A stretch of DNA of 64,000 nt, from the NCBI GenBank assembly GCA_964609855.1, contig CAZSTB010000001.1, positions 27,854 through 91,853 on the forward strand, written 5' to 3'. The DNA comes from an uncultured Bdellovibrionales bacterium. GTDB lineage: Bacteria > Patescibacteriota > Minisyncoccia > Moranbacterales > GWC2-37-73. The notes under the pieces are model-generated. The model searched no databases, was not told the DNA's origin, and worked only from the letters and a program-made list of their open reading frames with translations. Of this stretch, positions 7,368 through 60,689 are shown in pieces. Made by a program: the position numbers and the translations under genes. How positions within the stretch are numbered: position 1 is the stretch's first letter; every line of letters begins with the position of its first letter.

Positions 7368-10300
7368 ATGGTAAAAGTTTCACATAACCAGCTGACGCAT
7401 AATTCAGAAAAAGATGAGCAATCAGGAAAGCTTTTGCAGCGCATGCGTGAGCATTCCGAGGAGGAGCAAGCTTCACAATTAGCCAACGAATATGATCTTG
7501 CCTATGTAGATTTGAATGTTTTTCCAGTGGGAGGTGAGGATATGCAAACAATTACTTCTGAAGACTCGCATCGCTACAAGGTAGTAGTTTTTCAAAAAGC
7601 AGGAAAAGAAGTCCGAATGGGAATGATTGATCCAAACAGTGAAGAAGCGCTCTTGTTTATTGAAAAATTAAAAAAAGAAAATGGTTGGGTTATTCACCTT
7701 TATGTTATTTCAAATTCATCATTAGAAAAAATTTGGAAAAGATATGCGGAGGCGCCGCTGCTGGAAAGTCTTGAATCATTGCAGATATCGCTGACAGGCG
7801 AAGATTTGGAAAAGTTTGAAAAGGAATTTGGTAGCATGTTGGAACTCAAGCAGCGAATCAGGGAAATCCCCACAACGCAAGTCATCGCGATTATTATGGC
7901 AGGAGCTGTAAAAATGAAAGCTTCTGATGTGCATTTCGAACCGCAGGAAGAAGAAACACGTATGCGCTTTCGTATCGACGGCGTACTTCAGGATATTGGA
8001 AAATTTCCGAATGACACTTATCGTTTTATTTTGTCCCGTATAAAGATGATGGGAAAAATGAAAATCAATATTCGCGACATCGCGCAAGACGGTCATTTTT
8101 CCGTGGAAATGGAAAGCGGAAAAATAAACGTCAGAACAAACATCATTCCAGGCAATCATGGCGAATCAGTTGTTATGCGACTTCTTTCCCAAGCAGACAT
8201 TATGCTTTCAGTTGAAGATCTTGGTCTTCGCGGTCTGGCATATGAACATGTGCAAAAAGAAATCGCCAAACCGCATGGTATGATTTTAACAACTGGGCCT
8301 ACAGGCAGCGGAAAAACCACCACACTTTACGCCTTGGTTAATAAGCTCAACACGGCCGGCGTAAAAATTATTACGATTGAAGACCCGATTGAATATGAGG
8401 TTAAAAATGTTTCGCAAACACAAGTTGCCAAAGATCGAAATTATACTTTCGCAGAAGGCTTGAGAGCAGTAGTCCGTCAAGATCCGGACGTTATTTTAGT
8501 GGGAGAAATTCGAGATGACGAAACTGCCGACATTTCTGTAAATGCCGCACTAACGGGACATCTCGTGCTTTCGACGCTGCACACAAACAATGCTCCTGCA
8601 TCAATTCCACGTTTTATTGAGCTTGGTATAAAGCCTAATTTGATTGCGCCCTCCGTCAACTGTTTTATTGCTCAGCGTTTGGTCCGAAAACTATGTCAAC
8701 ATTGCAAGGAGGAATATGTGCCAGCTAGAGAAACCAGCGACAGTGTGAAAAAAATCTTGTCGATTATTTCTCCAAAAGCGAAATTGGAGATTCCTAAAAC
8801 GATTGAAAAACTTTATCGTCCAAAAGGATGCGACAAATGCCATATGTTGGGATTTAAGGGTCGTATCGGAATTTTTGAAGTGCTGACAATTAGTGAAAAC
8901 ATTGAAAAACTTATTCTGGAGATGGGCGGCGAAAGAGAAATTACTCAGACTGCACTTGAAGATGGAATGATAACAATGGCTCAGGACGGTATTTTAAAAG
9001 CTATCGAAGGGCTGACTTCAATGGAGGAAGTTTGGCGCGCAACTGGACAGACGGAATTCCTGGAAGAAATTTATGAAAAACTCATGGAACAATCCATGTC
9101 ACGCTCGATTGAAATTCCGGAGGAAGATTTGATTATTGTTTCGGATGCGATGTCATCGATAGAGAACTTGAAACAGTTGATTCAGACTACTAATCAAAAA
9201 AACATTGCCAAATATGTTTTCGCAAGTAGCTTGATGCTGAATGTTGGAGATATTCATATTGAACCAGAAGAAAATAGTGTGAAAATTCGCTACCGCATGG
9301 ATGGAATCCTGCAGACTATTGCAGAAATTCCGCTGACGGAATATCCCAGTTTTTTGGGCGCCATCAAATTTCTGAGCGGCTTCAGTACTGAAATTCGCGG
9401 CGGAGTTATGGATTCGCGTTTTTCTATCGCTTTGGAAAAGCCATTTAAAAATATTACTGAAACAAAAGTTGATGTGCGCGTTTCGATAATCTTAGGTGGA
9501 TATGGAGAAACGGTGGTAATGCGACTTTTAAACAAGTCTTCGGTGGCGCTGGATTTGGAAAAACTGGGGATTAGGAAACAAAATCTGGAAAGAATACTTC
9601 ATGCCGCAAAAAAACCGAATGGCGTTTTTCTTAATACTGGTCCTACTGGAAGCGGAAAAACTACCACGCTTTACAGTATTTTAAAAGTCTTGAATAATCC
9701 TGAAGTTAAGATTATTTCCGTTGAAGACCCGATTGAATATCAACTTGAAGGAATCTTGCAAACGGCAGTTGATGACAAAAACGGTTATACTTTTGCAACC
9801 GCGCTTAGGGCCTTGCTTCGTCAAAATCCGGATATTATGATGATTGGTGAAATTCGCGACGAAGAAACTGCTAACATCGCAGTGCAGGCGGCACTGACAG
9901 GTCATTCTATTCTTTCAACTTTGCATACCAATGATGCCGCCGGTTCCATTCAGCGCTTGATTAACATGGGCGTGCGAAGCGACGATTTGGCGACAGCAGT
10001 AAATGCCTTGATGGCACAGCGTCTAGTTCGAAAACTTTGTGATTGTAAGACTCCGCGCAACTTGAGCGATGACGAAAAACTTTCCATGCAAAAAAGTTTA
10101 GCAAGTCTTTCTGAAAAAGCTGGAATCCAGATTCCTGCTATACAACAAGTGTTTGAACCGAATGGATGCGAAAAGTGTAACAAAATAGGCTACAAAGGAC
10201 GAACAACAATCAGTGAGGTATTGGTTATTGACCGCGAAATCGAGGAAATGATAACTCAAGGAGCATCTTCTTCGCAAATCAGAGACAAAGCCATTGAAAA

Positions 10301-10385
10301 TGGTATGATCGCAATGGAGCAAGATGGAATTTTGAAAGTATTGGAGGGAGAAACTTCACTTGAAGAAGTTGAGCGAGTTATTTGA
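7368..10385 (+). CDS. Tandem-duplicated type II secretion / type IV pilus assembly ATPase (two complete GspE/PilB units fused, 1005 aa)
   Basis: Each half has Walker A (GPTGSGKTTTLYA / GPTGSGKTTTLYS), Asp box, Walker B (ILVGEIRD / MMIGEIRD), His box (TLHTNNA / TLHTNDA) and a tetracysteine CxxC...CxxC motif. N-terminal T2SSE_N-like region present. Start codon uncertain (7368 or ATG 7443). Confidence 0.85.
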   Translation: MVKVSHNQLTHNSEKDEQSGKLLQRMREHSEEEQASQLANEYDLAYVDLNVFPVGGEDMQTITSEDSHRYKVVVFQKAGKEVRMGMIDPNSEEALLFIEKLKKENGWVIHLYVISNSSLEKIWKRYAEAPLLESLESLQISLTGEDLEKFEKEFGSMLELKQRIREIPTTQVIAIIMAGAVKMKASDVHFEPQEEETRMRFRIDGVLQDIGKFPNDTYRFILSRIKMMGKMKINIRDIAQDGHFSVEMESGKINVRTNIIPGNHGESVVMRLLSQADIMLSVEDLGLRGLAYEHVQKEIAKPHGMILTTGPTGSGKTTTLYALVNKLNTAGVKIITIEDPIEYEVKNVSQTQVAKDRNYTFAEGLRAVVRQDPDVILVGEIRDDETADISVNAALTGHLVLSTLHTNNAPASIPRFIELGIKPNLIAPSVNCFIAQRLVRKLCQHCKEEYVPARETSDSVKKILSIISPKAKLEIPKTIEKLYRPKGCDKCHMLGFKGRIGIFEVLTISENIEKLILEMGGEREITQTALEDGMITMAQDGILKAIEGLTSMEEVWRATGQTEFLEEIYEKLMEQSMSRSIEIPEEDLIIVSDAMSSIENLKQLIQTTNQKNIAKYVFASSLMLNVGDIHIEPEENSVKIRYRMDGILQTIAEIPLTEYPSFLGAIKFLSGFSTEIRGGVMDSRFSIALEKPFKNITETKVDVRVSIILGGYGETVVMRLLNKSSVALDLEKLGIRKQNLERILHAAKKPNGVFLNTGPTGSGKTTTLYSILKVLNNPEVKIISVEDPIEYQLEGILQTAVDDKNGYTFATALRALLRQNPDIMMIGEIRDEETANIAVQAALTGHSILSTLHTNDAAGSIQRLINMGVRSDDLATAVNALMAQRLVRKLCDCKTPRNLSDDEKLSMQKSLASLSEKAGIQIPAIQQVFEPNGCEKCNKIGYKGRTTISEVLVIDREIEEMITQGASSSQIRDKAIENGMIAMEQDGILKVLEGETSLEEVERVI

Positions 10386-16370: not shown

Positions 16371-16426
16371 AATTCAAAATTAAAAAATTGATTCAAAATT
16401 CAAAATTCAAAATTCAAAATTCAACC
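16371..16426. repeat. AT-rich heptamer tandem repeat (attcaaa x5) overlapping the 5' end/leader of ruvC
   Basis: attcaaaattcaaaattcaaaattcaaaattcaacc at 16391-16425. Related aaatttgaaatt motifs recur at 61-100, 20950-20970 and 27590-27650. Confidence 0.5.
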
Positions 16427-16927
16427 AAAGCTCTTCGTGTTATTGGAATTGATCCTGGAACTGCGATTGTAGGCTGGGCGATTATAGATGAAATTGCGGG
16501 AAAATTAAATGCGGTGGCTTACGGCCATATTACTACTTCGCCGAAAAATACCACGGCCGAGAGACTTTTTGAAGTTGTGCGCGATCTTGATGAAATTATC
16601 AAGAAATATAAGCCTGAAGAATCGGCAGTAGAGGATTTGTTCTTTTTTAAGAATGTGAAGACAGTAATGAAAGTTAGTCAGGCGCGGGGTTCAATACTCT
16701 TGACTTTGCAGCAAAATTGTGTTAACATATATGAATATACACCGTTGCAAGTAAAACAGGCACTTACGGGGTATGGCAGGGCTGAAAAAAAGCAAATTCA
16801 GATAATGACGCAAAAGATTCTCAATCTGAAAAGTATTCCCAAACCTGACGACACGGCAGATGCGATTGCAATCGCTTTGTGCCATATAAACAGCCGAAAG
16901 ATGAAAGGAATAAAGAGTGGTTGTTGA
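16388..16927 (+). CDS. ruvC: crossover junction endodeoxyribonuclease RuvC
   Basis: LRVIGIDPGTAIVGWAIID (RuvC catalytic Asp motif) and C-terminal PKPDDTADAIAIALCH. N-terminus is encoded by the tandem repeat and the start is non-ATG (TTG 16388), so the true start is uncertain. Confidence 0.85.
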   Translation: MIQNSKFKIQNSTKALRVIGIDPGTAIVGWAIIDEIAGKLNAVAYGHITTSPKNTTAERLFEVVRDLDEIIKKYKPEESAVEDLFFFKNVKTVMKVSQARGSILLTLQQNCVNIYEYTPLQVKQALTGYGRAEKKQIQIMTQKILNLKSIPKPDDTADAIAIALCHINSRKMKGIKSGC

Positions 16928-17015
16928 TGATTTTAGATTTAAAATGAATCTGAAACAAAAATAAAAAGAGGTTCACTTCAATAGAATCTGCTTATTTTTT
17001 TATAAGATTAATTTT

Positions 17016-17672
17016 ATGCCAAATGTAAGTCCAATCATCCAATACTTTATTCAGCAAGGAGTGCCGCTCGACACGGTTATTTTGCTTTTCATGCTACCGA
17101 TTATTGTAACCTTGATCGCTTTTTTCCGCCAAGTTGTCGGAATTAAAGCTTTTGGAATATATACGCCCGCCATCGTGACCTTTGCATTTCTGGCTATCCC
17201 ACAGCTTCGTTACGGAGTTGTGATTTTTATTAGTGTCATCTTGGTCGGAATGCTGATGCGTTTCGTGCTTAAAGGTCTTAGAATTCTTTATCTACCGCGC
17301 GTTGCAATCACTTTAAGTATAATTGCCTTTTCTATCCTAATGCTCTTGGGAATCGGCGGTTCTTTGCAGCGAACTGGTTTAGCTTCGGTTTCAATTTTTC
17401 CTATCTTGATTATGATAACCTTGGTGGAAAAATTTGTAGCAGCGCAGCTTGAAAAAGGTAACAAGGCTGCTTTGATTCTAGCGATTGAGACGTTAGCTAT
17501 CTCATTGATAGGTTATAAATTAGCGAGCTGGCCATTTTTAATAAGTGGAATTGTTGCCTATCCTTGGCTTATATTGTTTACAATTCCGGTTAATATTTTC
17601 CTAGGTAAATGGGATGGTTTGAGACTTACTGAATATATAAGGTTTAGAGAGGTTCTGAAAAATCTTAAATAA
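17016..17672 (+). CDS. polytopic membrane protein (about 7 TM), resembling the 7TM module that partners with RimK-like ATP-grasp/DUF785 protease systems
   Basis: 218 aa, almost entirely hydrophobic helices. First gene of a same-strand cluster with four ATP-grasp genes. Confidence 0.55.
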   Translation: MPNVSPIIQYFIQQGVPLDTVILLFMLPIIVTLIAFFRQVVGIKAFGIYTPAIVTFAFLAIPQLRYGVVIFISVILVGMLMRFVLKGLRILYLPRVAITLSIIAFSILMLLGIGGSLQRTGLASVSIFPILIMITLVEKFVAAQLEKGNKAALILAIETLAISLIGYKLASWPFLISGIVAYPWLILFTIPVNIFLGKWDGLRLTEYIRFREVLKNLK

Positions 17673-17751
17673 TACTAAGTTGGTAGGATTTAAAAGATGA
17701 TATAATTAGGGCCATTGAGATCATTTCTTGCTGGTTTAATGACTTATATAA

Positions 17752-19146
17752 ATGTTTGAAGCTTTCAGAAATGGAAAAAAATTGTTGGGTATGAATGCCC
17801 GCAATCTTGATTACATTAGGCCTTACAATCGAAAACGCGCAAAGAAATTGGCAGACGATAAAATCCTGAGCAAGCGTATGCTTAAAAAGGGCGGGATTCC
17901 CGTGCCAAAATTACTTGCGAAAATCAGAACCGCTGAAGAGTTGGAAAACTTCGATTGGTCTTCTTTGCCGAATACGTTTGCTTTAAAACCCAATAGAGGC
18001 TATGGCGGCGGCGGGATTATGGTTGTATATGGAAAAAAGAAGAACAGAGCCGATGCCTGGGTTAAAGCTGATGGAAAAATTGTTACAATCGAAGACATTA
18101 AAAGTCATATTTTGAATATTTTGGATGGTGCTTTCTCATTGGCTAATATGCCTGACATCGCATTTTTTGAGGAAAGACTTACTTTACTGAAATTGTTTAA
18201 ACCTTACGCCTACAAGGGTATTCCGGATATCCGTGTAATTGTTTTTAATCGCATCCCGGTGATGGCCATGCTCAGACTCCCAACCAAGGAGTCAGGAGGA
18301 AAAGCTAATCTGCAACAGGGAGGTATCGGTGTGGGAATAGATTTGGCATCGGGAGTTACCACGACCGCTGTGATGGGCAAGGGGAACATCATTGATTATG
18401 TTCCAGGAACCAGACTTTTGCTTTCAGGTATTAAAATTCCATATTGGAAAGATATGCTGCTGCTGGCTGTAAAAGCTCAAGAGATTTCGGGAATGGGATT
18501 TTTAGGTGCGGATGTCGCAATTGATCGTGAAAGAGGTCCGGTATTTTTGGAAATTAATGCGCGTCCGGGACTTTCAATTCAAGTTGCGAATCTAAGCGGA
18601 CTTAGGGAGCGGCTGGAACGCATTAAAGGCTTGCGCATAAAAACCGCAGCTCGTGGCGTGCGCGTAGGTCGCGACTTGTTTGGTGGCGAAGTTGAAGAAG
18701 AAGTTGAGGAAATTTCGGGAAAAAAATTGATTGGAACGATTGAAAGAGTGAAACTTATTGGTCTGAAAGGAAAATTTGCAGAAATTGAAGCAAAAATTGA
18801 TACCGGAGCAGGTTTTACTTCTATTGATACCGACTTAGCTCAGCAGCTTGGCTTTGAGGATACGGTTGAGGAATTTCAAAAAATTGAAACAACCTATAAG
18901 GATATCGCTCATCTTGGAAAAAAAGAGCGTTGGGATATTTTTAAACACATTCCTCACCTTGAGAGTACCGTTGTTGTGCATAGCGCGAGCGGATCAACAT
19001 ATAGGCCTACAATCAAAATTACCGTTGTGATGGATAATGTGGTTATTCCAACTAAAGTGACTTTAATAAACAGAGCGCATTTGAAATACCCGATTATTAT
19101 CGGTAAAAGAAATTTAAAGAAATTTTTGATTGACGTAAGTAAATAG
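17752..19146 (+). CDS. ATP-grasp ligase (alpha-L-glutamate-ligase-related type) fused to a C-terminal retropepsin-like DUF785 ('putative ATP-dependent zinc protease') domain
   Basis: N-terminal 330 aa with ATP-grasp glycine-rich loop (NRGYGGGGIMVVYG) and LEINARPGLS. C-terminal 130 aa with aspartyl-protease-like KIDTGAGFTSID motif. Confidence 0.7.
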   Translation: MFEAFRNGKKLLGMNARNLDYIRPYNRKRAKKLADDKILSKRMLKKGGIPVPKLLAKIRTAEELENFDWSSLPNTFALKPNRGYGGGGIMVVYGKKKNRADAWVKADGKIVTIEDIKSHILNILDGAFSLANMPDIAFFEERLTLLKLFKPYAYKGIPDIRVIVFNRIPVMAMLRLPTKESGGKANLQQGGIGVGIDLASGVTTTAVMGKGNIIDYVPGTRLLLSGIKIPYWKDMLLLAVKAQEISGMGFLGADVAIDRERGPVFLEINARPGLSIQVANLSGLRERLERIKGLRIKTAARGVRVGRDLFGGEVEEEVEEISGKKLIGTIERVKLIGLKGKFAEIEAKIDTGAGFTSIDTDLAQQLGFEDTVEEFQKIETTYKDIAHLGKKERWDIFKHIPHLESTVVVHSASGSTYRPTIKITVVMDNVVIPTKVTLINRAHLKYPIIIGKRNLKKFLIDVSK

Positions 19147-19174
19147 GTGATTCATGTCCAGTAAAAGATGAGGT

Positions 19175-20020
19175 ATGAGATTTTATTGCATAAACAAGAG
19201 GCAGTCGCTTGGATTTGCTCGCGAATATTTGAAAAGCGCTTGTCAAAAATTGGGCGTGGAATTTGTGGAAATCGTTTCTGAGGATTTCAATATTTTAGAG
19301 ATGCCGCTACTAGGAAAGCAGGACATGCTTTACAGAGTGAGCACTGATAAAACTTCGTTTGCAATCGAACAATTTTTGTTAAATGATAATGTTACGACTT
19401 TTTACATTAATTCTCTGGAGCATGGAAAGTCGCGCGCTTCGTATTTGGCACTGAAAGGTTCGGAAATCTCCATTCCAAAAACCATCTCTGTACCGTCACT
19501 GAACAAGAAAAATATCGAAAAGTACGTTGAATATTTGGGCGGCTTCCCGATTATCTTGAAAGTCGTCGGCGGGATGCGCGGTGTTGGCGTTATTAAAGTA
19601 GATTCTTTGCCTGCGCTTTATTCCATTACCGATTATTTGGATACAATTGAAAGTAAATATATTTTTCGCGAGTTTATTGACTCTTCCAGTAGTGCTCGCT
19701 TAGTAGTTTTAAATGGAGAAGTTATTGCTAGTGTTGAATATGGCTCCACTGGAAACGATTTTCGTTCAAACAGTAGGCTTAGCGGTACCAGTGTGATTGA
19801 AAAGACTTATGACGAAAAAATTCAAAAAGCCGCTATTGAGGCAACGAGGCTTAGGGGATTTGCTTTTGGCGGCGTTGATATCATGATAGATAAGGGTGGA
19901 AAGTATTATGTTTTGGAAGTTAATTTTCCTTTTGGATTTCCAGAGGTTCAGAAAATTACCGGTATCGATGTGGCAGAAAAAATGATATGCTTTCTAATGA
20001 ATAAATCAAAAAAATTATAA
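19175..20020 (+). CDS. ATP-grasp family ligase (RimK/GshB-like)
   Basis: ILKVVGGMRGVGVIKV glycine-rich ATP-binding loop and VLEVNFPFGF ATP-grasp C-terminal motif. Confidence 0.7.
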   Translation: MRFYCINKRQSLGFAREYLKSACQKLGVEFVEIVSEDFNILEMPLLGKQDMLYRVSTDKTSFAIEQFLLNDNVTTFYINSLEHGKSRASYLALKGSEISIPKTISVPSLNKKNIEKYVEYLGGFPIILKVVGGMRGVGVIKVDSLPALYSITDYLDTIESKYIFREFIDSSSSARLVVLNGEVIASVEYGSTGNDFRSNSRLSGTSVIEKTYDEKIQKAAIEATRLRGFAFGGVDIMIDKGGKYYVLEVNFPFGFPEVQKITGIDVAEKMICFLMNKSKKL

Positions 20021-20022
20021 TA

Positions 20023-20943
20023 GTGGCTATGGAAATCAAAAAACGCCTTCTAATCATAGGTATCAGCGAAAAGGTTCACACGAGTGACAGACTCATAAGG
20101 GAAGCAAGACGAAATGATTTACCCTATGATTTTATTAAATGGGGTTCGCTGGTTTTTCTTGGTGGAGAAATTTTTTCGCAGTCGCAGAAAGTTGAAATTA
20201 AAAACTATGCAGCAATTTTTTGTGATATTCCTAGTTATAAGCTTAATGGAAAATCGCAGGATTTTTATTTCCGTCTCTATAACGAACTGAATGAAGTTTG
20301 CAAAGCAGCCGAAAAACATGGTGTAAAGTTATTGAACGGAAAATTTTTGCTGAGAAACCCTTTCTATAATAAATTTGCGCAAGCGCAAATGTTCGCAGAA
20401 AAAAATGTCGAGGCCATTGAAACCTTGCATCTTTGTGACAATAAACTTTCAAAAGTCGTTAGGGTTATTGATTCATTAGGGTGGGGTTATCCGTTGGTAG
20501 TTAAATGCAGTGAGGGCGGGATGGGGCAGGCTGTCTGGAAAGCGCAAGATGTCGAGGGTCTGCAAGACATTATCGAAGATAAACGCAATCAAAGTCTTGT
20601 TTATCAGCCATTTGTGAAAAATGATTGCGACTTTAGAGTTTTAGTGATCGGCGGAAAGGTTTTAGGCATCATGAAAAGAACAGCAAAGGATGGTGAATGG
20701 AAAAACAATTTCGCTTTGGGTGGCAGCGTAGTGGCATTTGAAGATGAAAAGATGGATATTTTTTGCAAGGATGTGTGCCGGAAACTGGAATTGGAATATG
20801 TAGGCCTGGATGTTTTTAAGGTGGGGGAGGGTTATAAGATCATTGAAACTAATATTTTTGCTTGTTTTGAGGGATTTGAGGAAGCTTTTCCGCATGAAAA
20901 CGTGGCACTGCAAATCCTTAGAGCGCTTGAACTAGTCAATTAG
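20023..20943 (+). CDS. ATP-grasp family ligase (RimK-like paralogue)
   Basis: VVKCSEGGMGQAVWK loop, DFRVLVIGGKV central motif, GLDVFKVGEGYKIIETN. GTG at 20023 or ATG at 20029. Confidence 0.7.
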   Translation: MAMEIKKRLLIIGISEKVHTSDRLIREARRNDLPYDFIKWGSLVFLGGEIFSQSQKVEIKNYAAIFCDIPSYKLNGKSQDFYFRLYNELNEVCKAAEKHGVKLLNGKFLLRNPFYNKFAQAQMFAEKNVEAIETLHLCDNKLSKVVRVIDSLGWGYPLVVKCSEGGMGQAVWKAQDVEGLQDIIEDKRNQSLVYQPFVKNDCDFRVLVIGGKVLGIMKRTAKDGEWKNNFALGGSVVAFEDEKMDIFCKDVCRKLELEYVGLDVFKVGEGYKIIETNIFACFEGFEEAFPHENVALQILRALELVN

Positions 20944-20998
20944 TTATAATTAAAATTTTGAAATTTTGAGCATAGCTCAGCTTTTCTAGGATATATCT

Positions 20999-21949
20999 AT
21001 GAAAAAAGTAATGATTCTTTTTGGAAGAAGTGATTGGAATAAGGCAAAGCCTTTCGCTAATCCTGAATATCAGTATTCTTATGAATATTTTTATGATCTT
21101 TGCAAACACAACGACATCCAGATGTATCGCGCGTCATATGAGTGGTATGACTATGAGAAAAATATTTTCACCCATGCTTGGATGTATGAAAGTGAGGGAG
21201 GGAATTGGAAGAAAGTTTCCAATATTGAACCTGATTTAGTTTACGATAAGACTAAAGCGCGCATGGAAGTCTATTACAAGAAAGAGCTTATTGGAAAAAG
21301 ATATCCATTTGTAAACGATTTGAATTTTACGAAAATAATTGACGATAAATTCGTTACAAGCCTGCTTTTTTCGCAGTGGTCAAAAAAAAGTTGGCTTTTT
21401 AAGAACAAGCAAGAACTTGATAGTATTTTGCCCGAGCTTAAAACTTCAAAAGTAGTCATTAAGCCCGTCAGCGAAAGTGGCGGCAAGGGTGTTTATATTC
21501 TTGATAAAGATGATGCTAAAAATTTGGAACTTAGCGGCGAAAATATTGCACAGGAGTTTATTGATTCATCCAAAGGAGTTCCAGGTGTCAGCAGTGGTAT
21601 GCACGATCTGAGGTTAGTTTTTGTGAACAATGAAATAATGTACGCCTATATTCGTCAGCCCCAAGAGGGAAGTTATTTGGCAAACTTGGCGCAAGGCGGT
21701 TCACTGATAATTGTTCCCATTGAAAATTTACCGGCCTCTTTGAATCCAGTCCTCGCTTATACGAAAGAAATATTTGCCACGTTTACAAATAAAATATACG
21801 CAATCGATTTCATGTTTGATGAAGAGGGAACTCCTTGGATTGTGGAACTCAATTCGATGCCGGGACTTTATTTTACGCCGGAAGAAAAACCGCACATGTT
21901 GAAAATGTATCAGAAGCTGCTCGACATGTTCAATGGAATATTGAAATAA
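20999..21949 (+). CDS. ATP-grasp family ligase (YheC/YheD-like paralogue)
   Basis: VIKPVSESGGKGVYIL glycine-rich loop, DLRLVFVNNEI, IVELNSMPGLYF. Confidence 0.65.
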   Translation: MKKVMILFGRSDWNKAKPFANPEYQYSYEYFYDLCKHNDIQMYRASYEWYDYEKNIFTHAWMYESEGGNWKKVSNIEPDLVYDKTKARMEVYYKKELIGKRYPFVNDLNFTKIIDDKFVTSLLFSQWSKKSWLFKNKQELDSILPELKTSKVVIKPVSESGGKGVYILDKDDAKNLELSGENIAQEFIDSSKGVPGVSSGMHDLRLVFVNNEIMYAYIRQPQEGSYLANLAQGGSLIIVPIENLPASLNPVLAYTKEIFATFTNKIYAIDFMFDEEGTPWIVELNSMPGLYFTPEEKPHMLKMYQKLLDMFNGILK

Positions 21950-22150
21950 CTTTTAAAAAACAGGCAATGCCTGTTTTTTTCATGGTATAGTACGAGTTTT
22001 GTGCTATAATTACAAGCATATAAATAAATTCTTTTTAATGAGAGTTGATATTTTTAAAAGAGGAAATTTTATTTTTTACGCTTGATTAAATTGTTACTTG
22101 GTGTATAGTAGTAGCTGCTTTAAAAAATGTAATTTTTAGTTTTTTTATAT

Positions 22151-24487
22151 ATGAAACCAATCTTTGTTTCAACAAAATTTAAAAATATCTCCCGTCAAGG
22201 AAAGTGGAAACTGGCTGGAAAAATTGCGCTCTACTCATTCGGGGTCGGAATTCTTTTTGTGGTGGGTCTTTTCATTTATTTTGCAAAAGATCTTCCAAGT
22301 CCGACAGCTGTGAATAGTCGCATGGTTGCTGAGTCTACTAAAATTTATGACAGAACCGGTGAACATCTCCTTTATGATGTGCATGGCGAAGAAAAAAGAA
22401 CTATCATTGAATTCAATCAAATCCCGGATACGGTTAAATACGCAACTATTGCTTTGGAGGATCAGGAATTTTATTCTCATCATGGAATCAAGATCACTTC
22501 TATTATTCGCAGCGCACTTAAGGATATTATCAAGGGTGGAGCGAAGCAAGGAGGTTCGACTATTACGCAGCAACTTGTAAAGCAATCACTCCTGACTTCA
22601 GAAAAAACGCTGACAAGAAAAATTAAGGAAGTTATCCTTGCTATTGAAATTGAACAGCGCTATACCAAAGATGAAATCTTGGGAATGTACCTGAATCAAA
22701 TTCCTTATGGCTCTAACGCTTACGGTATCGAAGCGGCTGCCCAGACTTTTTTTAAGAAATCAGCAGGCGAACTCACATTAGCTGAAGCGGCTTTACTTTC
22801 AGCTCTTCCAAATGCCCCAACTTACTATTCTCCTTTTGGATTACATACTGATGCCTTGAAAGCTCGCCAAGAAACCGCACTCAGCCGCATGGCAAGTATC
22901 GGGTATATCACTGAAGAGCAAACAGCGGATGCGAAAAATGTTGACATTCTCGCAGGCATAAGTCCAAAAAATGACAATATTTCAGCGCCGCACTTTGTTA
23001 TGTATATCAAGGATTATCTGGTTAATAAATATGGTGAGCAATCCGTTGAGCAGGGTGGTCTAAAAGTTTATACTTCCTTGAATTGGGAAATGCAGCAAGC
23101 TGCTGAAAAAGCGGTAGCTGAAGGAGCGGAAAAAAATGCCGCAAATAAGGCTTCAAATGCCGCACTCGTAGCGATGGATCCAAAGACTGGGCAGATTTTA
23201 GCAATGGTCGGATCTAAAAATTATTTTGATAAAACCATTGATGGTCAAGTGAATGTAGCCTTGGCTAACCGTCAGCCAGGTTCTTCATTTAAGCCTTATG
23301 TTTATCTTACAGCCTTTACTAAGGGCTACACTCCTGAAACAATGCTTTTTGACGTACCGACAAGTTTTAGTACGGACGCTACTCAACAAGATTATACTCC
23401 TCAAAACTATGATGGAAGTTTTCATGGACCGTTACAAATGAAAAACGCACTTGCTATGTCATTGAATATTCCTGCCGTTAAAACTTTGTACTTAGCCGGA
23501 GTTAAGGATTCGATAAATTTGGCGAAAAGTTTGGGAATCTCAGGACTTAATCAGCCGGATAGATATGGTCTTTCGCTTGTGCTTGGTGGAGGGGAAGTGA
23601 CATTGCTTGATCATGTCAGTGCATACAGTACGTTGGCAAGTGGAGGCATGAAGCGAGATAGGGTATCAATTTTAAAAGTCGAAGACAAAAATGGAACTGT
23701 CCTGGAAAAGTATAGGGAGAGTAGTGGTGTGCGAGTAGTGGATGAGAAATACGTAGGAATGTTGGATTACATTATGTCTACGAATGATTTTCGTGCCCCT
23801 GTTTTTGGTGAAAATAATCCCTTTAAATTTACTGAGCGGGCAGTGGCTGCCAAGACAGGAACAACAAATGAATTTCGTGATGGTTGGGCGATGGGATATA
23901 CTCCCTCCATCGCGGCCGGAGTATGGGCTGGGAATAATGATAACTCTTCAATGAAAGTCGGAGCTGATGGTATTATTGTTGCGGCTCCTATATGGAGAGC
24001 ATTTATGAATTTTGCTTTAGGTAATAGCGCAGCGGATAAATTTCCTGAATATGAAAAAGAGGAGCTAGAAAAGCCGGTGCTGAATGGAGATTTTAATACT
24101 AAAGAAATTGAAGTTTGTGAAATAGATAAAGGTAAAAAGGATGGAGAATATTGTTTGGCAAATGACACCTGCCCAAGTGACGCAAAAGATAAAGTTACAT
24201 TTGGAGATGTGCATGATATTCTTTACTACGTTAACAAGGAAGATCCCAGGGGAGACCAACCAAAAGATCCAAGTGACGACCCTCAATACAAAAACTGGGA
24301 AAAAGGAGTCCAGTCTTGGCTTAAGGATAGCAAGGGTAAAAAAGAAGTTAAGGGACTTAGAAAACTTGAACCTGCTCCAACTGATGAATGTAAATCTGAT
24401 TACTTTTCAGCGAATGATAAGCCAAAGGAAGAGCCAAAACCAGAGCCTGCCCCTGTTGTAACTCCCGTTGCAACTCCGGTTCTGTAG
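22151..24487 (+). CDS. class A penicillin-binding protein (bifunctional glycosyltransferase/transpeptidase, PBP1A type)
   Basis: N-terminal TM anchor, glycosyltransferase motifs (EDQEFYSHHGI, GGSTITQQL), transpeptidase SxxK (SSFKP), SxN and KTGTT motifs. Pro/Glu-rich C-terminal tail. Confidence 0.9.
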   Translation: MKPIFVSTKFKNISRQGKWKLAGKIALYSFGVGILFVVGLFIYFAKDLPSPTAVNSRMVAESTKIYDRTGEHLLYDVHGEEKRTIIEFNQIPDTVKYATIALEDQEFYSHHGIKITSIIRSALKDIIKGGAKQGGSTITQQLVKQSLLTSEKTLTRKIKEVILAIEIEQRYTKDEILGMYLNQIPYGSNAYGIEAAAQTFFKKSAGELTLAEAALLSALPNAPTYYSPFGLHTDALKARQETALSRMASIGYITEEQTADAKNVDILAGISPKNDNISAPHFVMYIKDYLVNKYGEQSVEQGGLKVYTSLNWEMQQAAEKAVAEGAEKNAANKASNAALVAMDPKTGQILAMVGSKNYFDKTIDGQVNVALANRQPGSSFKPYVYLTAFTKGYTPETMLFDVPTSFSTDATQQDYTPQNYDGSFHGPLQMKNALAMSLNIPAVKTLYLAGVKDSINLAKSLGISGLNQPDRYGLSLVLGGGEVTLLDHVSAYSTLASGGMKRDRVSILKVEDKNGTVLEKYRESSGVRVVDEKYVGMLDYIMSTNDFRAPVFGENNPFKFTERAVAAKTGTTNEFRDGWAMGYTPSIAAGVWAGNNDNSSMKVGADGIIVAAPIWRAFMNFALGNSAADKFPEYEKEELEKPVLNGDFNTKEIEVCEIDKGKKDGEYCLANDTCPSDAKDKVTFGDVHDILYYVNKEDPRGDQPKDPSDDPQYKNWEKGVQSWLKDSKGKKEVKGLRKLEPAPTDECKSDYFSANDKPKEEPKPEPAPVVTPVATPVL

Positions 24488-24510
24488 CTAATATTAAACG
24501 TAAAATATAA

Positions 24511-25083
24511 ATGATAGCGAAAATAAAAGGCAACCTTGAATATCTGCGAGATTCCTATGTGGTAGTGGATGTGAATGGAGTTGGATATAAAGTTTTCATA
24601 ACCATGCATACTTTCGGTGTAGTTGCAGGGAGGAAAGAAATTGAACTGTATACTCATACATATGTTCGAGAAGACACTTTAGCTCTGTATGGATTTCTAG
24701 AAATCGATGAGCTTGAAATGTTTGAACTACTGATTTCTATTTCCGGAATAGGACCGAAAGCAGCACTGGGAATCCTCACGATTGCCAATCCAGACACCGT
24801 TAGAATGGCTGTGCTGAATGAAGACCCGTCTATTCTTACACGTGTTTCCGGTGTGGGTAAAAAAATTGCTGAGCGCGTAATTTTGGAGCTTAGAAATAAA
24901 ATTACCGAAATTCCGGAAAGACAGAAAGCTCAAATTTCTGCTGACAGCGATTCACTGGAGGCTTTAGTTGCGATGGGATATTCAATTTCGGATGCCAGAG
25001 AGACTCTTAAGTTAATTCCTTCTGAAATAAAAGATGTTGCAGAAAGAGTAAAATTAGCATTAAAAAATTTAGGAAAAAAATAA
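24511..25083 (+). CDS. ruvA: Holliday junction DNA helicase subunit RuvA
   Basis: MIAKIKG...VVVDVNGVGYKV N-terminal OB domain, helix-hairpin-helix ISGIGPKAALGIL, C-terminal domain III. Confidence 0.9.
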   Translation: MIAKIKGNLEYLRDSYVVVDVNGVGYKVFITMHTFGVVAGRKEIELYTHTYVREDTLALYGFLEIDELEMFELLISISGIGPKAALGILTIANPDTVRMAVLNEDPSILTRVSGVGKKIAERVILELRNKITEIPERQKAQISADSDSLEALVAMGYSISDARETLKLIPSEIKDVAERVKLALKNLGKK

Positions 25084-47072: not shown

Positions 47073-47144
47073 TTATTTATAATCTATGATAATCTGTAGT
47101 TACAATTAAATGCCTAAACTTCACGGATTCCCGCGGAGCATGGC

Positions 47145-47284
47145 AAAAAATACCGACTAAAGTATATCAAGCTCTCCATCCAGAGCACTTTAGTCGGTCG
47201 TGCGTCGAAAGGCGTGCGGGTGTCCGCAAGGACATCGCTGGTGGGGAGCTTTATGTTTTCCACCAAAAAAAATCCGACTAAAGA
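47145..47284. other. GC-rich structured element flanked by 18-bp direct repeats (aaaaaataccgactaaag / aaaaaaaatccgactaaag); candidate ncRNA or MITE
   Basis: Inverted copy actttagtcgg at 47187-47197 forms an 11-bp stem with 47151-47161. GNRA hairpin tgtcc-GCAA-ggaca at 47221-47234. A spurious 77-aa ORF overlaps it. Confidence 0.35.
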
Positions 47285-48476: not shown

Positions 48477-48506
48477 TTGACATTATACGCATTCAATGCG
48501 TATAAT
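48477..48506 (+). promoter_or_regulatory. consensus sigma70 promoter (TTGACA-18-TATAAT) with embedded perfect 11-1-11 palindrome ttatacgcatt-c-aatgcgtataa (48483-48505); candidate auto-operator; drives leaderless transcript starting at ATG 48513
   Basis: -35 at 48477-48482, -10 at 48501-48506. ATG 7 nt downstream of the -10. The palindrome spans the spacer and the -10 box. Confidence 0.5.
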
Positions 48507-48512
48507 GTAGAA

Positions 48513-53795: not shown

Positions 53796-55052
53796 ATGAA
53801 AAAGAGTCAGGTTAATGTTTTTGATAAAGGAACGCCGGATTACGTGATAGCTCACGCAGTCAGGCAGCAGAAAAGAGGACGTCGCCCTTCAATGGCCTTT
53901 CTTGGTGAAAGGAATCCGGAGAAGGCTTTGGCTCTAGCAAAACGTTTCAAGGGCTGCAACATGGTAGTTTCCCAGGATGGTGAAAAGCAATGGAAGGTTA
54001 CGTTTAACGGAGCCATCGCTGCACAGATCCACATGGACTACCAGAACCAGGCTGACAAGGTTGTTCTCATGAACGACGACAAGCGCTGCCAGCGGTTCGT
54101 CAAAGAGCTCGTCCTCTCGCATGCAGTACAGTTCGTTATGCAGCGGGGACCGATGCCGGCAGCACTTCTAAGGGTTGTTCCTGAACGCGCGCTGGAAGAA
54201 TATACCTGCGAAAACCTGATAAGCTTTGGCAAGATTCCCAGTAGTATTTTCGCGATGAGCGACAAAACCCTGGGCTCATATCTTTCCCAGTTCGTCACCG
54301 TTGTTGAAGGAAAGTATTCCAGCCCCGAACAAATGCTCACCTGCCTGTTGATGGAAATCTACGAGAAGAAAGGTATCCTTCTGGGTATCCGGGACGCTCA
54401 GTGGTCACGCATGGACGATGGTCATATCGTCGCTACGTTCGAAATAAAAAGCGAACAAACCTTCAAGGTGTGGAATGGTAACGACGCAAGCAACATGTTT
54501 CATTTCGTCGCACCTTACCACCCGTCGAGGAACGGCAAGAAAAGCGTCTGCCTGATCAACGGCAGCACCGATTATTACATCAGGGGAAGCGAGGCCGGAA
54601 TCAGAAGAGTGCTTTCTCCTGAAGAATCGAGACCTGTGAAGGAAGGATTGTTTCTTTCTTCTACCTGGTCAAAAATCAACCATCCGTTCTACGCCGAGGG
54701 TAAGACCTTGGGCATCGAGTTTTCGGCCGTGCTCTGCATGTCGAAAACCGGCTACCAGACGCTCTACGAGTTACTGCTTGCAGCAATGAATCAGGACAAT
54801 CTGTTTGTAGCGGTCAGTGGAGGGTTTGGCTCTCCTTACGATTATGCACAGAACGTCCTGAGTCGCAAAGGCATCCGTTCGCCTGCAGGCAAACAAGGGG
54901 CTCACGAAGTTCGTGGCTCCGAAGAGGACTGCGTCTGGGAACACGAGGTTCTCAAGTCGGAAGGCGTTCTGGACAAAAGTGTCGCTCCGGACTGGTTTTA
55001 CCACGAAGGGTGGCTCAAGATTTTCGAAGGAGAAGAAAAGAAGTTCAACTAA
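53796..55052 (+). CDS. hypothetical protein (418 aa) in about 50% GC cassette; no recognisable domain
   Basis: Strong SD (GAGGAGGAAGTCGCAATG). GC content far above the window average. Antisense ORFs in the same region are judged artefacts of the high GC. Confidence 0.6.
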   Translation: MKKSQVNVFDKGTPDYVIAHAVRQQKRGRRPSMAFLGERNPEKALALAKRFKGCNMVVSQDGEKQWKVTFNGAIAAQIHMDYQNQADKVVLMNDDKRCQRFVKELVLSHAVQFVMQRGPMPAALLRVVPERALEEYTCENLISFGKIPSSIFAMSDKTLGSYLSQFVTVVEGKYSSPEQMLTCLLMEIYEKKGILLGIRDAQWSRMDDGHIVATFEIKSEQTFKVWNGNDASNMFHFVAPYHPSRNGKKSVCLINGSTDYYIRGSEAGIRRVLSPEESRPVKEGLFLSSTWSKINHPFYAEGKTLGIEFSAVLCMSKTGYQTLYELLLAAMNQDNLFVAVSGGFGSPYDYAQNVLSRKGIRSPAGKQGAHEVRGSEEDCVWEHEVLKSEGVLDKSVAPDWFYHEGWLKIFEGEEKKFN

Positions 55053-55081
55053 ATATCAACTTCAAATGGAGGTATAGGAAC

Positions 55082-60611: not shown

Positions 60612-60635
60612 GCACGAAGTATTTTCACAACCGAA

Positions 60636-60670
60636 AAGGGCTGGCCGAGAAGTTTCGGCCAGCCTCTTTT
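60636..60670 (+). terminator. rho-independent terminator (ggctggccga-gaagtt-tcggccagcc + tctttt)
   Basis: 10-bp perfect GC-rich stem. Confidence 0.65.
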
Positions 60671-60689
60671 AACAAAAGGAGGCAATCTG

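What the first reader, a model, noticed from the sequence alone, without database searches (positions are those of the whole stretch)
17016..21949. Five-gene membrane-linked ATP-grasp cluster: 7TM protein + ATP-grasp/retropepsin fusion + three further ATP-grasp ligases
Five consecutive same-strand genes with 3-80 nt gaps encode a roughly 7-TM membrane protein, then four ATP-grasp enzymes. The first ATP-grasp is fused at its C-terminus to a retropepsin-like DUF785 domain (KIDTGAGFTSID) that is annotated historically as an ATP-dependent zinc protease.

A 7TM module, a RimK-like ATP-grasp and this acid-protease-like domain are a known but functionally uncharacterised trio. The proposed role is synthesis and processing of a ribosome-independent peptide or poly-amino-acid tag at the membrane. 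Here the ligase and protease are fused, and three extra divergent paralogues follow (RimK/GshB-like, RimK-like, YheC/D-like). That suggests sequential addition of several different amino acids, a possible non-ribosomal peptide or surface-modification pathway.

The cluster sits between ruvC and a class A PBP, near FemAB/MurE, which is consistent with a cell-envelope role.
Basis: partly seen in the sequence, partly recalled or inferred. Interest (0 to 1): 0.78.

Follow-up and report, generated by a model that had tools for sequence, protein, structure and literature searches.

The report
Membrane ligase–protease core, variable ligase cassette
A tiny-genome (Candidatus Moranbacteria) bacterium carries a strongly conserved pair of genes, a seven-helix membrane protein and a peptide-bond-forming enzyme fused to a glutamate-cutting protease, followed by a slot whose extra peptide-ligase genes differ between even close relatives, which suggests a strain-variable, ribosome-independent peptide product.

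Summary
The five genes are real and the domain calls are correct. They are not one conserved five-gene unit.

**Conserved core.** Only the first two genes are conserved: a 7TM protein (PF14402) and an ATPgrasp_ST::retropepsin fusion. Across 54 related species they are 48-87% identical, as conserved as the neighbouring YebC and RuvC.

**Variable slot.** The three extra ATP-grasp genes fill a slot between the core and PBP1A. In 43 complete loci this slot holds 44 protein families in 34 different orders: ATP-grasps, GT4, MATCAP/DUF1704 peptidase, YdjC, Mur-ligase-like and DUF3541.

**Fusions elsewhere.** In other organisms the core is fused to MATCAP, YdjC, a second ATP-grasp or the 7TM module. 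This ties the slot genes to the core pathway.

**Closest known system.** This is RloABC of Pseudomonas (2025), so the trio is no longer wholly uncharacterised. Here the RloB-like protein lacks its transglutaminase ectodomain. The RloA-like protease is cytoplasmic and fused, but keeps D350, K348, R418 and R441, which match RloA's catalytic and poly-Glu-binding residues.

**Best reading.** A membrane-tethered machine builds and trims a Glu-rich non-ribosomal peptide whose composition is set by the strain-specific ligase cassette. The product and acceptor are unknown.

**Verdict.** New variant of a known kind; moderately high interest.

The parts
17016..17672 (+). Core gene 1: a 218-aa 7TM membrane protein, homologous to the membrane half of RloB. 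It has no ectodomain. Its cytoplasmic tail GKWxGLRxxEYxRF is invariant.
   Evidence: PF14402 E 2e-27; NF052267 RloB positions 306-508 only. Seven TM segments, N-out/C-in. AF2 all-helical, pLDDT 69. 35-85% identity in 54 loci.
17752..19146 (+). Core gene 2: a 464-aa fusion of an RloC-type ATP-grasp ligase and an RloA/RimB-type retropepsin. It has no signal peptide, so it is predicted to be cytoplasmic.
   Evidence: PF14397 E 2e-67 plus PF05618 E 6e-10. TIGR02291 287 bits. 48-87% identity in 51 loci. Foldseek top hits are ArgX/LysX, RimK and CphA1.
17800..18627 (+). ATPgrasp_ST domain (aa 17-292) with intact catalytic motifs.
   Evidence: K79, D159/R161, K184-A-N186, D254, E267 and N269 are invariant.
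18673..18735 (+). Near-invariant Glu-rich inter-domain segment DLFGGEVEEEVEEISGKKLIG (aa 308-328). It is the best-conserved stretch of the protein yet is predicted to be disordered.
   Evidence: Alignment of 52 fusion proteins, including Dojkabacteria at 48% identity. Absent from stand-alone RloC-like proteins. AF2 block-mean pLDDT 21-45 across 271-330. Translation checked.
18730..19137 (+). Retropepsin-like domain (aa 327-462). The catalytic D350-T-G is encoded at 18799-18807. K348, R418 and R441 are invariant.
   Evidence: Profile versus PDB: RloA structures 9g58 (E 3e-7) and 9g59 (E 2e-5). Residues align to RloA K46, D48, R114 and R137 with the same 23-residue spacing. pLDDT 80-94.
19175..20020 (+). 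Cassette gene g3: a RimK-like ATP-grasp and a rare allele.
   Evidence: PF08443 E 4e-23. PDB RimK 5zct E 2e-19. Below the TIGR00768 cut-off. Unique among the 43 complete loci clustered; only about 10 database clusters at >=52% identity.
20023..20943 (+). Cassette gene g4: a RimK-like ATP-grasp (probable start ATG at 20029).
   Evidence: PF08443 E 4e-23. PDB RimK E 7e-15. Homologues at 26-60% identity in 11 loci.
20999..21949 (+). Cassette gene g5: a divergent ATP-grasp of an unclassified RimK/GshB/TTL/YheCD-like clade (family C0.1).
   Evidence: In the cluster of g5 relatives (C0, 36 proteins), orthologues in 11 other loci at about 47-73% identity.
16388..16927 (+). ruvC: the conserved upstream flank. 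It marks the boundary and is not part of the system.
22151..24487 (+). Class A PBP: the conserved downstream boundary of the variable slot in Moranbacteria. It is not universally linked to the system.
   Evidence: Absent from L058/L059.

Best explanation
This is a candidate-phyla-radiation variant of the Rlo (RloABC-type) amidoligase system, made of a fixed core plus an exchangeable accessory cassette.

**Shown.**
- The 7TM protein is the membrane half of RloB.
- Gene 2 joins an RloC-type ATP-grasp ligase to an RloA/RimB-type aspartic endopeptidase.
- That peptidase keeps the catalytic Asp and the Lys/Arg residues that bind poly-glutamate in RloA.
- The two genes are as conserved as the housekeeping neighbours.
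- They are always followed by at least one further ATP-grasp gene.
- The downstream slot changes its content between close relatives.

**Inferred mechanism.**
1. The 7TM protein holds the ligase-protease at the cytoplasmic face of the membrane through its invariant C-terminal tail.
2. The ATPgrasp_ST domain uses ATP to add amino acids, most likely alpha-linked glutamate, to a carboxylate of a growing peptide or acceptor.
3. The cassette ligases (here two RimK-like and one TTL/YheCD-like) add further or different residues, so the cassette sets product composition.
4. The fused retropepsin, acting as a dimer, cuts the acidic chain. This limits its length or releases it, as RimB does for RimK.
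5. The product is then exported or displayed through the 7TM protein, or acts at it.

The acceptor and the final product are not known.
For: **Domains and catalytic residues.**

**Rlo genetics and biochemistry.**
- PMC12239564: RloA cleaves >=8 Glu; K46, D48, R114 and R137 matter; deletion of rloB or rloC suppresses the protease-null defect.
- PMC11957791: RimB trims RimK's products and stimulates RimK; a RimBK hybrid is proteolytically active.

**Core conservation.** Mean identity is 73.9% (7TM) and 72.4% (fusion), against 71.4% YebC, 71.1% RuvC and 67.3% PBP1A.

**Linkage of extra ligases to the core.**
- All 43 complete loci have an ATP-grasp directly after the fusion.
- The same holds in Dojkabacteria L051 and in L058/L059 outside the PBP context.
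- Single proteins join ATPgrasp_ST + retropepsin to a second ATP-grasp (P0264), to MATCAP (P0241, P0252; P0269 and P0377 carry only a retropepsin-like region with no PF05618 hit) and to YdjC (P0242). P0384 joins the 7TM module to ATPgrasp_ST.
- By my count, about 44 of the best 150 cluster representatives fall in the 747-837 aa size class; all three members scanned carry MATCAP, as does the 916-aa P0241.

**Variability.** 44 families and 34 orders occur in 43 loci. Only 9 of 87 locus pairs with >=80% core identity share a cassette.

**Nearest solved folds of the ligase.** ArgX/LysX, RimK and cyanophycin synthetase. From my own knowledge, all of these extend a peptide or protein carboxylate.
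Against: - No product, acceptor or activity has been measured for any member outside Pseudomonas. Even there the RloC product is unknown.
- The protease here is cytoplasmic whereas RloA is secreted, so the Pseudomonas logic may not transfer.
- No match reaches an NCBIfam equivalog cut-off.
- The 7TM fold matched nothing solved, and its model is mediocre. 'Export' and 'anchoring' are therefore guesses.
- Distant g3 homologues form tandem ligase arrays without any core, so the cassette ligases could work on their own.
- GT4, YdjC and GalT neighbours hint at a sugar-containing acceptor rather than a pure peptide.
- Same-strand adjacency is weak evidence in a genome where nearly all genes in the region are co-directional.
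Confidence: 0.55

Rival explanations
1. **Reversible C-terminal tagging of a specific protein ('tubulin-code-like').** The ligases add Glu and other residues to an acidic C-terminal tail of a cellular or membrane protein. The retropepsin, and in other strains the MATCAP-like carboxypeptidase, would erase the tag. This resembles RimK/RimB on ribosomal protein S6, or TTL/TTLL with MATCAP on tubulin.
For: - g3 and g4 are closest to RimK.
- The core ligase's nearest folds are ArgX/LysX and RimK; from my own knowledge these modify protein C-termini.
- The g5 family hits the TTL and TTLL6 profiles.
- MATCAP-like genes with an intact HExxxH motif occur in 8 of 43 cassettes and are fused to the core in many organisms.
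- RimB and RloA cut poly-Glu tails on proteins.
Against: - No candidate target was identified. The 7TM protein and the fusion protein do not end in Glu.
- No small ORF lies in the gaps.
- A single conserved protein target fits poorly with a ligase set that changes between close relatives.
- GT4 and YdjC genes are unexplained by this model.
Confidence: 0.2
2. **Decoration of a glycan or cell-wall precursor.** The ATP-grasps would attach amino acids or short peptides to sugar carboxylates or amines of a surface glycopolymer or peptidoglycan precursor. The 7TM protein would act as its membrane platform.
For: - The Pfam family is named 'sugar-transfer associated'.
- GT4 occurs in 11 cassettes, YdjC (from my own knowledge a sugar-deacetylase family) in 6 and Mur-ligase-like genes in 3.
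- YdjC is fused to the core in P0242.
- GalT lies next to the 7TM gene in L058.
- PBP1A, FemAB and Mur ligase are neighbours here.
- Rlo mutants show cell-shape and beta-lactam phenotypes.
Against: - The window's own cassette has no sugar-handling gene.
- PBP adjacency is not universal.
- The conserved poly-Glu-binding residues of the protease argue for a peptide chain of several acidic residues rather than a single amino-acid decoration.
Confidence: 0.15
3. **The three extra ligases are functionally independent of the core.** They would lie next to it only because the slot between the core and PBP1A tolerates insertions. The real system would then be just the two-gene core.
For: - The slot also contains unrelated genes, such as an AAA/DUF4143 ATPase in L035 and ORFs with no Pfam hit.
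- Distant g3 homologues occur in core-less tandem arrays.
- The whole region is co-directional.
Against: - An ATP-grasp follows the fusion directly in 43 of 43 loci.
- The same holds in other lineages and other genomic contexts.
- Covalent fusion of the core to a second ATP-grasp, to MATCAP and to YdjC occurs elsewhere.
Confidence: 0.08

Closest known systems
RloABC operon of Pseudomonas aeruginosa (Lormand et al. 2025, PMC12239564)
   Same: It has the same three modules: an ATPgrasp_ST/TIGR02291-type ligase (RloC), a PF14402 7TM domain (RloB) and a PF05618 retropepsin with DTG and the poly-Glu-binding K/R residues (RloA). The genes are adjacent on one strand.
   Different: - Here the protease is fused to the C-terminus of the ligase and has no signal peptide, so it is cytoplasmic rather than secreted.
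- The 7TM protein lacks the periplasmic inactive transglutaminase domain.
- One to several extra ATP-grasp and other genes follow.
- The host is a CPR bacterium, whereas the paper reports 96% of RloB sequence hits from Proteobacteria.
- All matches fall below the NCBIfam Rlo cut-offs.
RimK/RimB and the RimBK hybrid (PMC11957791, PMC7343187)
   Same: A cytoplasmic alpha-L-glutamate ligase is paired with a cytoplasmic retropepsin that trims poly-Glu and stimulates the ligase. A natural ligase-protease fusion exists and is proteolytically active. g3 and g4 are RimK-like.
   Different: - RimBK has the protease at the N-terminus and a true RimK domain. Here the ligase is N-terminal and of the ATPgrasp_ST clade.
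- Rim systems have no 7TM partner.
- The target of the system here is unknown and is not shown to be RpsF.
Tubulin tail enzymes: TTL/TTLL ligases with the MATCAP carboxypeptidase (own knowledge, plus Pfam PF03133 and PF08014)
   Same: ATP-grasp ligases add Glu or Tyr to acidic C-terminal tails, and a MATCAP-family metallopeptidase removes the terminal residue. MATCAP-like genes are cassette members or are fused to the core in relatives.
   Different: There is no MATCAP gene in this window and no known acidic-tail substrate. Similarity of g5 to TTL is weak (Pfam E 8e-7 over 36 residues; the C0 profile gives TTLL6 E 3e-5).
Cyanophycin synthetase and poly-gamma-glutamate synthetase (own knowledge; fold hit)
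   Same: These make non-ribosomal poly-amino-acids using ATP-grasp and/or Mur-ligase-type domains. Mur-ligase-like genes occur in three cassettes. CphA1 is among the nearest folds to the core ligase.
   Different: There is no Mur-ligase domain in this window's cassette, and TIGR02068 scores 21 bits against a cut-off of 850. No primer-binding N-domain was detected.
Variable surface-polymer loci such as O-antigen and capsule clusters between conserved flanks (analogy, own knowledge)
   Same: Conserved flanking genes bracket a slot whose biosynthetic gene content differs between close relatives.
   Different: The variable genes here are mostly amide-bond ligases and peptidases rather than glycosyltransferases. 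No flippase, polymerase or export genes of the Wzx/Wzy or ABC type were seen.

Membership tests
RloABC system | RloC-type ATP-grasp (PF14397 / TIGR02291) | tested here: met
   PF14397 scores 227.9 bits against a cut-off of 31.4. TIGR02291 scores 287.4 bits, just under its 314.2 cut-off.
RloABC system | RloB: inactive transglutaminase ectodomain fused to a 7TM domain | tested here: not met
   Only the 7TM half is present (PF14402 positions 58-247; NF052267 positions 306-508, 79 bits against a cut-off of 900). Just 19 residues precede TM1.
RloABC system | RloA-type retropepsin with a catalytic Asp and a positively charged poly-Glu channel | tested here: met
   PF05618 scores 39.6 bits against a cut-off of 27. 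The profile hits RloA structures 9g58 and 9g59. K348, D350, R418 and R441 are invariant and align with K46, D48, R114 and R137. It is not an NCBIfam equivalog (RloA3 44.9 bits against 210).
RloABC system | Protease carries a signal peptide and is secreted | tested here: not met
   The domain is fused C-terminally to an ATP-dependent cytoplasmic ligase. The N-terminus of the fusion has no hydrophobic signal sequence.
RloABC system | Poly-Glu cleavage; suppression of the protease-null phenotype by loss of the ligase or the membrane protein | not testable with these tools
   This needs biochemistry and genetics.
RimK (ribosomal protein S6 glutamate ligase) / RimBK | RimK-family ligase above the TIGR00768 or PRK10446 cut-off | tested here: not met
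   g3 scores 98.2 and g4 scores 101.9 bits against a cut-off of 143.4. PRK10446 scores 78 and 53 bits against 331. The Pfam RimK domain is present.
RimK (ribosomal protein S6 glutamate ligase) / RimBK | RimBK architecture: RimB domain N-terminal to RimK | tested here: not met
   The order here is ligase then protease, and the ligase belongs to the ATPgrasp_ST clade (PMC11957791).
RimK (ribosomal protein S6 glutamate ligase) / RimBK | RpsF with a C-terminal Glu-Glu as substrate | not tested
   rpsF was not located in the window.
Graspetide / RiPP ATP-grasp maturase | Adjacent precursor peptide gene and a maturase-clade ATP-grasp | tested here: not met
   No plausible small ORF lies in the intergenic gaps. 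TIGR04187 and TIGR04185 score 20-26 bits against cut-offs of 350-425.
Cyanophycin synthetase | ATP-grasp fused to Mur-ligase-type domains; TIGR02068 | tested here: not met
   TIGR02068 scores 21.5 bits against a cut-off of 850. There is no Mur-ligase domain in genes 1-5.

The most novel reading that the evidence does not exclude
The slot after the core is a diversity-generating 'peptide barcode' locus. In these reduced-genome, probably episymbiotic bacteria, an essential membrane ligase-protease builds an acidic peptide or glycopeptide. Its residues are dictated by an exchangeable set of amino-acid ligases, trimming peptidases (MATCAP-like, DUF3541) and sugar enzymes. This would yield a strain-specific surface or exported molecule under diversifying selection, for host recognition or phage evasion. 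It would be a peptide counterpart of O-antigen variation, and a prokaryotic relative of the tubulin-tail writer/eraser enzymes.
Probability: 0.15. Interest if true: 0.85.

Novelty: new variant of a known kind. Interest (0 to 1): 0.6.

Why it matters
The biochemical product of Rlo-type systems is an open question, even though the genes affect osmotic tolerance, antibiotic sensitivity, biofilm formation and cell shape in Pseudomonas.

The Moranbacteria form gives several new handles on that question:
- The ligase and protease are one polypeptide, so they must act in the same compartment and probably on the same molecule.
- The membrane partner is reduced to the bare 7TM module.
- Natural fusions and cassette contents name the likely accessory activities: further amino-acid ligases, a MATCAP-type carboxypeptidase, a sugar deacetylase and a glycosyltransferase.

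Bacteria with genomes of about 1 Mb (own knowledge) keep the core as conserved as RuvC and YebC. That argues for an important function.

The rapid turnover of the ligase cassette between species sharing more than 80% core identity is unusual for amide-ligase genes. It suggests strain-specific chemistry that could be found by heterologous expression.

Tried and rejected
**Searches that gave nothing.**
- Structure of the 7TM protein: the AF2 model is mediocre (pLDDT 69). Foldseek against PDB gave nothing below E=1, so no transporter or enzyme fold could be assigned.
- Promoter and terminator scan of 15.3-25.3 kb: counts were no higher than in shuffled sequence, so operon boundaries could not be set.
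- Precursor peptide search: no plausible small ORF lies in the intergenic gaps.
- Literature: Iyer et al. 2009 (PMC3268129), which first predicted this trio, is not held. Searches for DUF1704/MATCAP with ATP-grasp, and for CPR with RimB/RimK, found nothing relevant.

**Autoprocessing or pseudosubstrate role for the Glu-rich segment.**
- I considered whether the retropepsin cuts or binds the conserved segment aa 308-328.
- The segment is near-invariant, specific to fused forms and predicted to be disordered.
- However, it has only three consecutive Glu residues, interrupted by Val or Ile. RloA needs at least 8 Glu and is blocked by bulky residues.
- The tools return no coordinates for inspecting contacts. 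I keep this as a lead only.

**Readings rejected.**
- Canonical RimK, GshB or cyanophycin synthetase identities for genes 3-5: all scores fall below the curated cut-offs.
- A peptidoglycan role inferred from the neighbours: downgraded after L058/L059.

Full report
**Observation**

The window carries five consecutive + strand ORFs at exactly the stated coordinates.

| Gene | Coordinates | Size | Pfam result |
|---|---|---|---|
| 1 | 17016-17672 | 218 aa | PF14402 7TM_transglut, E 2e-27, 7TM half only |
| 2 | 17752-19146 | 464 aa | PF14397 ATPgrasp_ST (aa 17-292, E 2e-67) + PF05618 Zn_protease/RimB-like (aa 327-462, E 6e-10) |
| 3 (g3) | 19175-20020 | 281 aa | PF08443 RimK, E 4e-23 |
| 4 (g4) | 20023-20943 | 306 aa | PF08443 RimK, E 4e-23 |
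| 5 (g5) | 20999-21949 | 316 aa | Comparable weak hits to ATPgrasp_ST, RimK, YheCD, GSH-S and TTL |

- The quoted motif KIDTGAGFTSID is present, and DTG is encoded at 18799-18807.
- The four ATP-grasps are only 19-26% identical to each other, and all keep the nucleotide- and Mg-binding motifs.
- Flanks are ruvC upstream, and a class A PBP, ruvA, FemAB and a Mur ligase downstream.
- The organism is a Candidatus Moranbacteria (CPR/Patescibacteria) bacterium, judged from the names attached to near-identical proteins and loci.

**What is conserved and what is not**

A scan of one genome per GTDB species returned 55 loci. Fifty-four are Moranbacteria-type and one is Dojkabacteria. Mapping the window's proteins onto them gives this order:

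YebC - RuvC - 7TM - fusion - variable stretch (1.1 to 6.2 kb) - PBP1A - RuvA

Conservation in 28 loci that carry all five genes:

| Protein | Mean identity to the window |
|---|---|
| 7TM | 73.9% |
| Fusion | 72.4% |
| YebC | 71.4% |
| RuvC | 71.1% |
| PBP1A | 67.3% |

So the two-gene core is as conserved as housekeeping genes. The extra ligases are not:
- g3 has no counterpart covering at least 85% of its length in these loci.
- g4-like genes are 26-60% identical.
- g5-like genes are 29-71% identical.

I extracted every ORF between the fusion and PBP1A in 43 complete loci, clustered them and scanned representatives against Pfam.
- Every locus has an ATP-grasp gene directly after the fusion.
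- Beyond that the content is highly variable: many mutually distant ATP-grasp lineages; a GT4 glycosyltransferase (11 loci); a MATCAP/DUF1704-type metallopeptidase with an intact HExxxH motif (8 loci); YdjC (6); DUF3541 (3); and Mur-ligase-like proteins (3).
- At 50% identity there are 44 families and 34 different gene orders in 43 loci.
- Among 87 locus pairs whose fusion proteins are at least 80% identical, only 9 share the same cassette.
- The window's nearest relatives (83-89% core identity) share no cassette family with it.
- A metagenomic contig, L062, carries the window's cassette type (g3-like at 64% identity, then g4-like, g5-like and DUF3541) ahead of PBP1A and RuvA.

**Are the slot genes functionally tied to the core?**

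Three lines of evidence say yes.

1. *Adjacency survives changes of context.*
   - Dojkabacteria L051 has 7TM - fusion - two ATP-grasps with no YebC or RuvC match nearby.
   - L058/L059 have YebC - RuvC - GalT - 7TM - fusion - RimK-like - DUF3541 - ATP-grasp - RuvA - RuvB, with no PBP.
2. *Domain fusions.* An exhaustive search of 1.84 billion cluster representatives found 2120 relatives. Pfam scans of selected hits show single proteins that combine:
   - ATPgrasp_ST + retropepsin + MATCAP (P0241, P0252). P0269 and P0377 keep the MATCAP fusion but have only a retropepsin-like region, with no PF05618 hit.
   - ATPgrasp_ST + retropepsin + YdjC (P0242).
   - ATPgrasp_ST + retropepsin + a second ATP-grasp (P0264).
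   - 7TM + ATPgrasp_ST (P0384).
   - By my count from the length column, about 44 of the best 150 representatives fall in the 747-837 aa class. The three members of that class that I scanned all carry MATCAP, and so does the 916-aa P0241.
3. *The ectodomain of the 7TM partner varies while the 7TM module stays.* It is transglutaminase-like in Proteobacteria (PMC12239564), PKD repeats in L057 and absent here.

Against this, more distant g3 homologues (about 42% identity) sit in tandem arrays of two or three ATP-grasp genes with no core nearby. Such ligase arrays can therefore also stand alone.

**Relation to known systems**

NCBIfam names the parts RloB, RloA and RimB, though all matches are below the curated cut-offs.

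*RloABC.* The rlo operon of P. aeruginosa was described in 2025 (PMC12239564).
- RloA is a secreted retropepsin that cleaves runs of at least 8 Glu. K46, D48, R114 and R137 are important for this.
- RloB is an inactive transglutaminase fused to a 7TM domain.
- RloC is a cytoplasmic ATP-grasp.
- Deleting rloB or rloC suppresses the hypo-osmotic lethality of the triple protease mutant.
- The RloC product is unknown.

*Match of the window's protease to RloA.* A profile of the Moranbacteria fusion hits the two RloA crystal structures, 9g58 (E 3e-7) and 9g59 (E 2e-5). K348, D350, R418 and R441 are invariant and align with those four RloA residues, with the same 23-residue spacing between the two Arg. 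The acidic-substrate specificity is therefore probably retained. This is an inference.

*RimK/RimB.* RimB is the cytoplasmic homologue. It trims poly-Glu made by RimK and stimulates RimK. A natural RimB-RimK hybrid is proteolytically active (PMC11957791).

*Nearest solved folds of the core ligase.* These are ArgX/LysX, RimK and cyanophycin synthetase. From my own knowledge, all of them extend a peptide or protein carboxylate.

*Differences from Rlo.*
- The protease is fused behind the ligase and lacks a signal peptide, so it must work in the cytoplasm.
- The transglutaminase ectodomain is missing.
- A ligase cassette follows.

*Differences from RimBK.* The domain order is the opposite, the ATP-grasp belongs to another clade, and there is a 7TM partner.

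**An unexplained detail**

The segment between the two domains, DLFGGEVEEEVEEISGKKLIG (aa 308-328), is the best-conserved stretch of the protein. It is conserved even in Dojkabacteria at 48% overall identity. It is absent from stand-alone RloC-like proteins and degenerate in some longer fusions. AlphaFold gives it very low confidence: block-mean pLDDT is 21-45 across aa 271-330, while the flanking retropepsin domain scores 80-94.

A conserved but disordered acidic segment beside a Glu-specific protease invites the idea of a self-cleavage site or pseudosubstrate. However, it has only three consecutive Glu, interrupted by Val or Ile, and RloA does not cut such sequences. It may instead be a docking element. 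I could not test this.

**Most likely mechanism**

Shown:
- a conserved membrane protein plus a ligase-protease pair;
- intact catalytic residues in both domains;
- obligate company of further amino-acid ligases;
- rapid cassette turnover.

Inferred:
1. The 7TM protein recruits the enzyme through its invariant cytoplasmic tail GKWxGLRxxEYxRF.
2. The core ligase builds an alpha-linked, Glu-rich chain on a carboxylate acceptor.
3. The cassette ligases add other residues.
4. The retropepsin dimer limits or releases the chain.
5. The product acts at the membrane or passes through it.

Confidence is about 0.55 for this general scheme. It is much lower for any specific acceptor.

Rivals are:
- reversible tagging of a protein C-terminus (0.2);
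- decoration of a glycan or wall precursor (0.15), supported by GT4, YdjC and GalT neighbours and by the Rlo cell-shape phenotypes;
- functional independence of the extra ligases (0.08).

**Novelty and score**

The trio was predicted long ago and has been genetically characterised since 2025, and ligase-retropepsin fusion has a precedent. Not found in the searchable literature are:
- the RloC::RloA fusion with a bare 7TM partner as a highly conserved CPR core;
- its frequent covalent fusion to MATCAP-type peptidases;
- the hypervariable amide-ligase cassette behind it.

I rate it a new variant of a known kind, with interest 0.6.

**Caveats**
- All related loci are metagenome-assembled.
- ORF calling and clustering were mechanical.
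- The locus search finds only fairly close relatives, so distribution figures are lower bounds.
- No activity has been measured.

Noticed in passing
window 16388-25083: In Moranbacteria the usual yebC-ruvC-ruvA arrangement is split. The 7TM gene, the fusion gene, the variable slot and PBP1A all lie between ruvC and ruvA. In L058/L059 the same system sits between ruvC and ruvA-ruvB without a PBP, and in L031 ruvA lies upstream of ruvC.
   Followed up: partly
window 47111-47236: A full-length match to the LOOT RNA motif (RF03000, 84.7 bits against a gathering score of 46.4), next to a low-GC, minus-strand gene block at about 43.3-47.1 kb.
   Followed up: no
window 48477-52616: A 1379-aa protein combining HTH_3, an Mrr_cat restriction-endonuclease domain and a novel STAND NTPase domain. 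It looks like a defence or conflict-system protein.
   Followed up: no
window 53796-56074 and 59313-61376: Two GC-rich islands (0.48-0.51, against about 0.38 for the rest of the window). Their ORFs (418, 354, 432 and 228 aa) have no Pfam match at E<=1e-5. This could be foreign DNA.
   Followed up: partly
window 7368-10385: A 1005-aa protein with two T2SSE (type II/IV secretion ATPase) stretches, which looks like a tandem-duplicated pilus or secretion ATPase.
   Followed up: no
L060 8001-10801: In a contig with archaeal-type neighbours (PTH2, TruD, an intein-containing DUF87 ATPase), the 7TM module and ATPgrasp_ST are fused in one 576-aa protein. It is followed by a separate Transglut_core protein, so the system appears to reach beyond Bacteria.
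   Followed up: no
L057 3436-7377: In a more distant lineage the 7TM partner carries N-terminal PKD domains instead of a transglutaminase domain. The ligase is a 795-aa fusion ending in MATCAP, and its retropepsin motif reads DTS rather than DTG.
   Followed up: partly
L003, L004, L016, L018 and other loci (titles): Several MAG records titled 'uncultured Bdellovibrionales bacterium' share 63-87% identity and full synteny with Moranbacteria loci. Their taxonomic labels are probably wrong.
   Followed up: no
L063 6964-8870; L064 6044-8867: Free-standing tandem arrays of two or three RimK-like ATP-grasp genes with no 7TM/retropepsin core. In L064 the array is flanked by DUF218 and DUF8173 genes. 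This may be a separate multi-ligase module.
   Followed up: no
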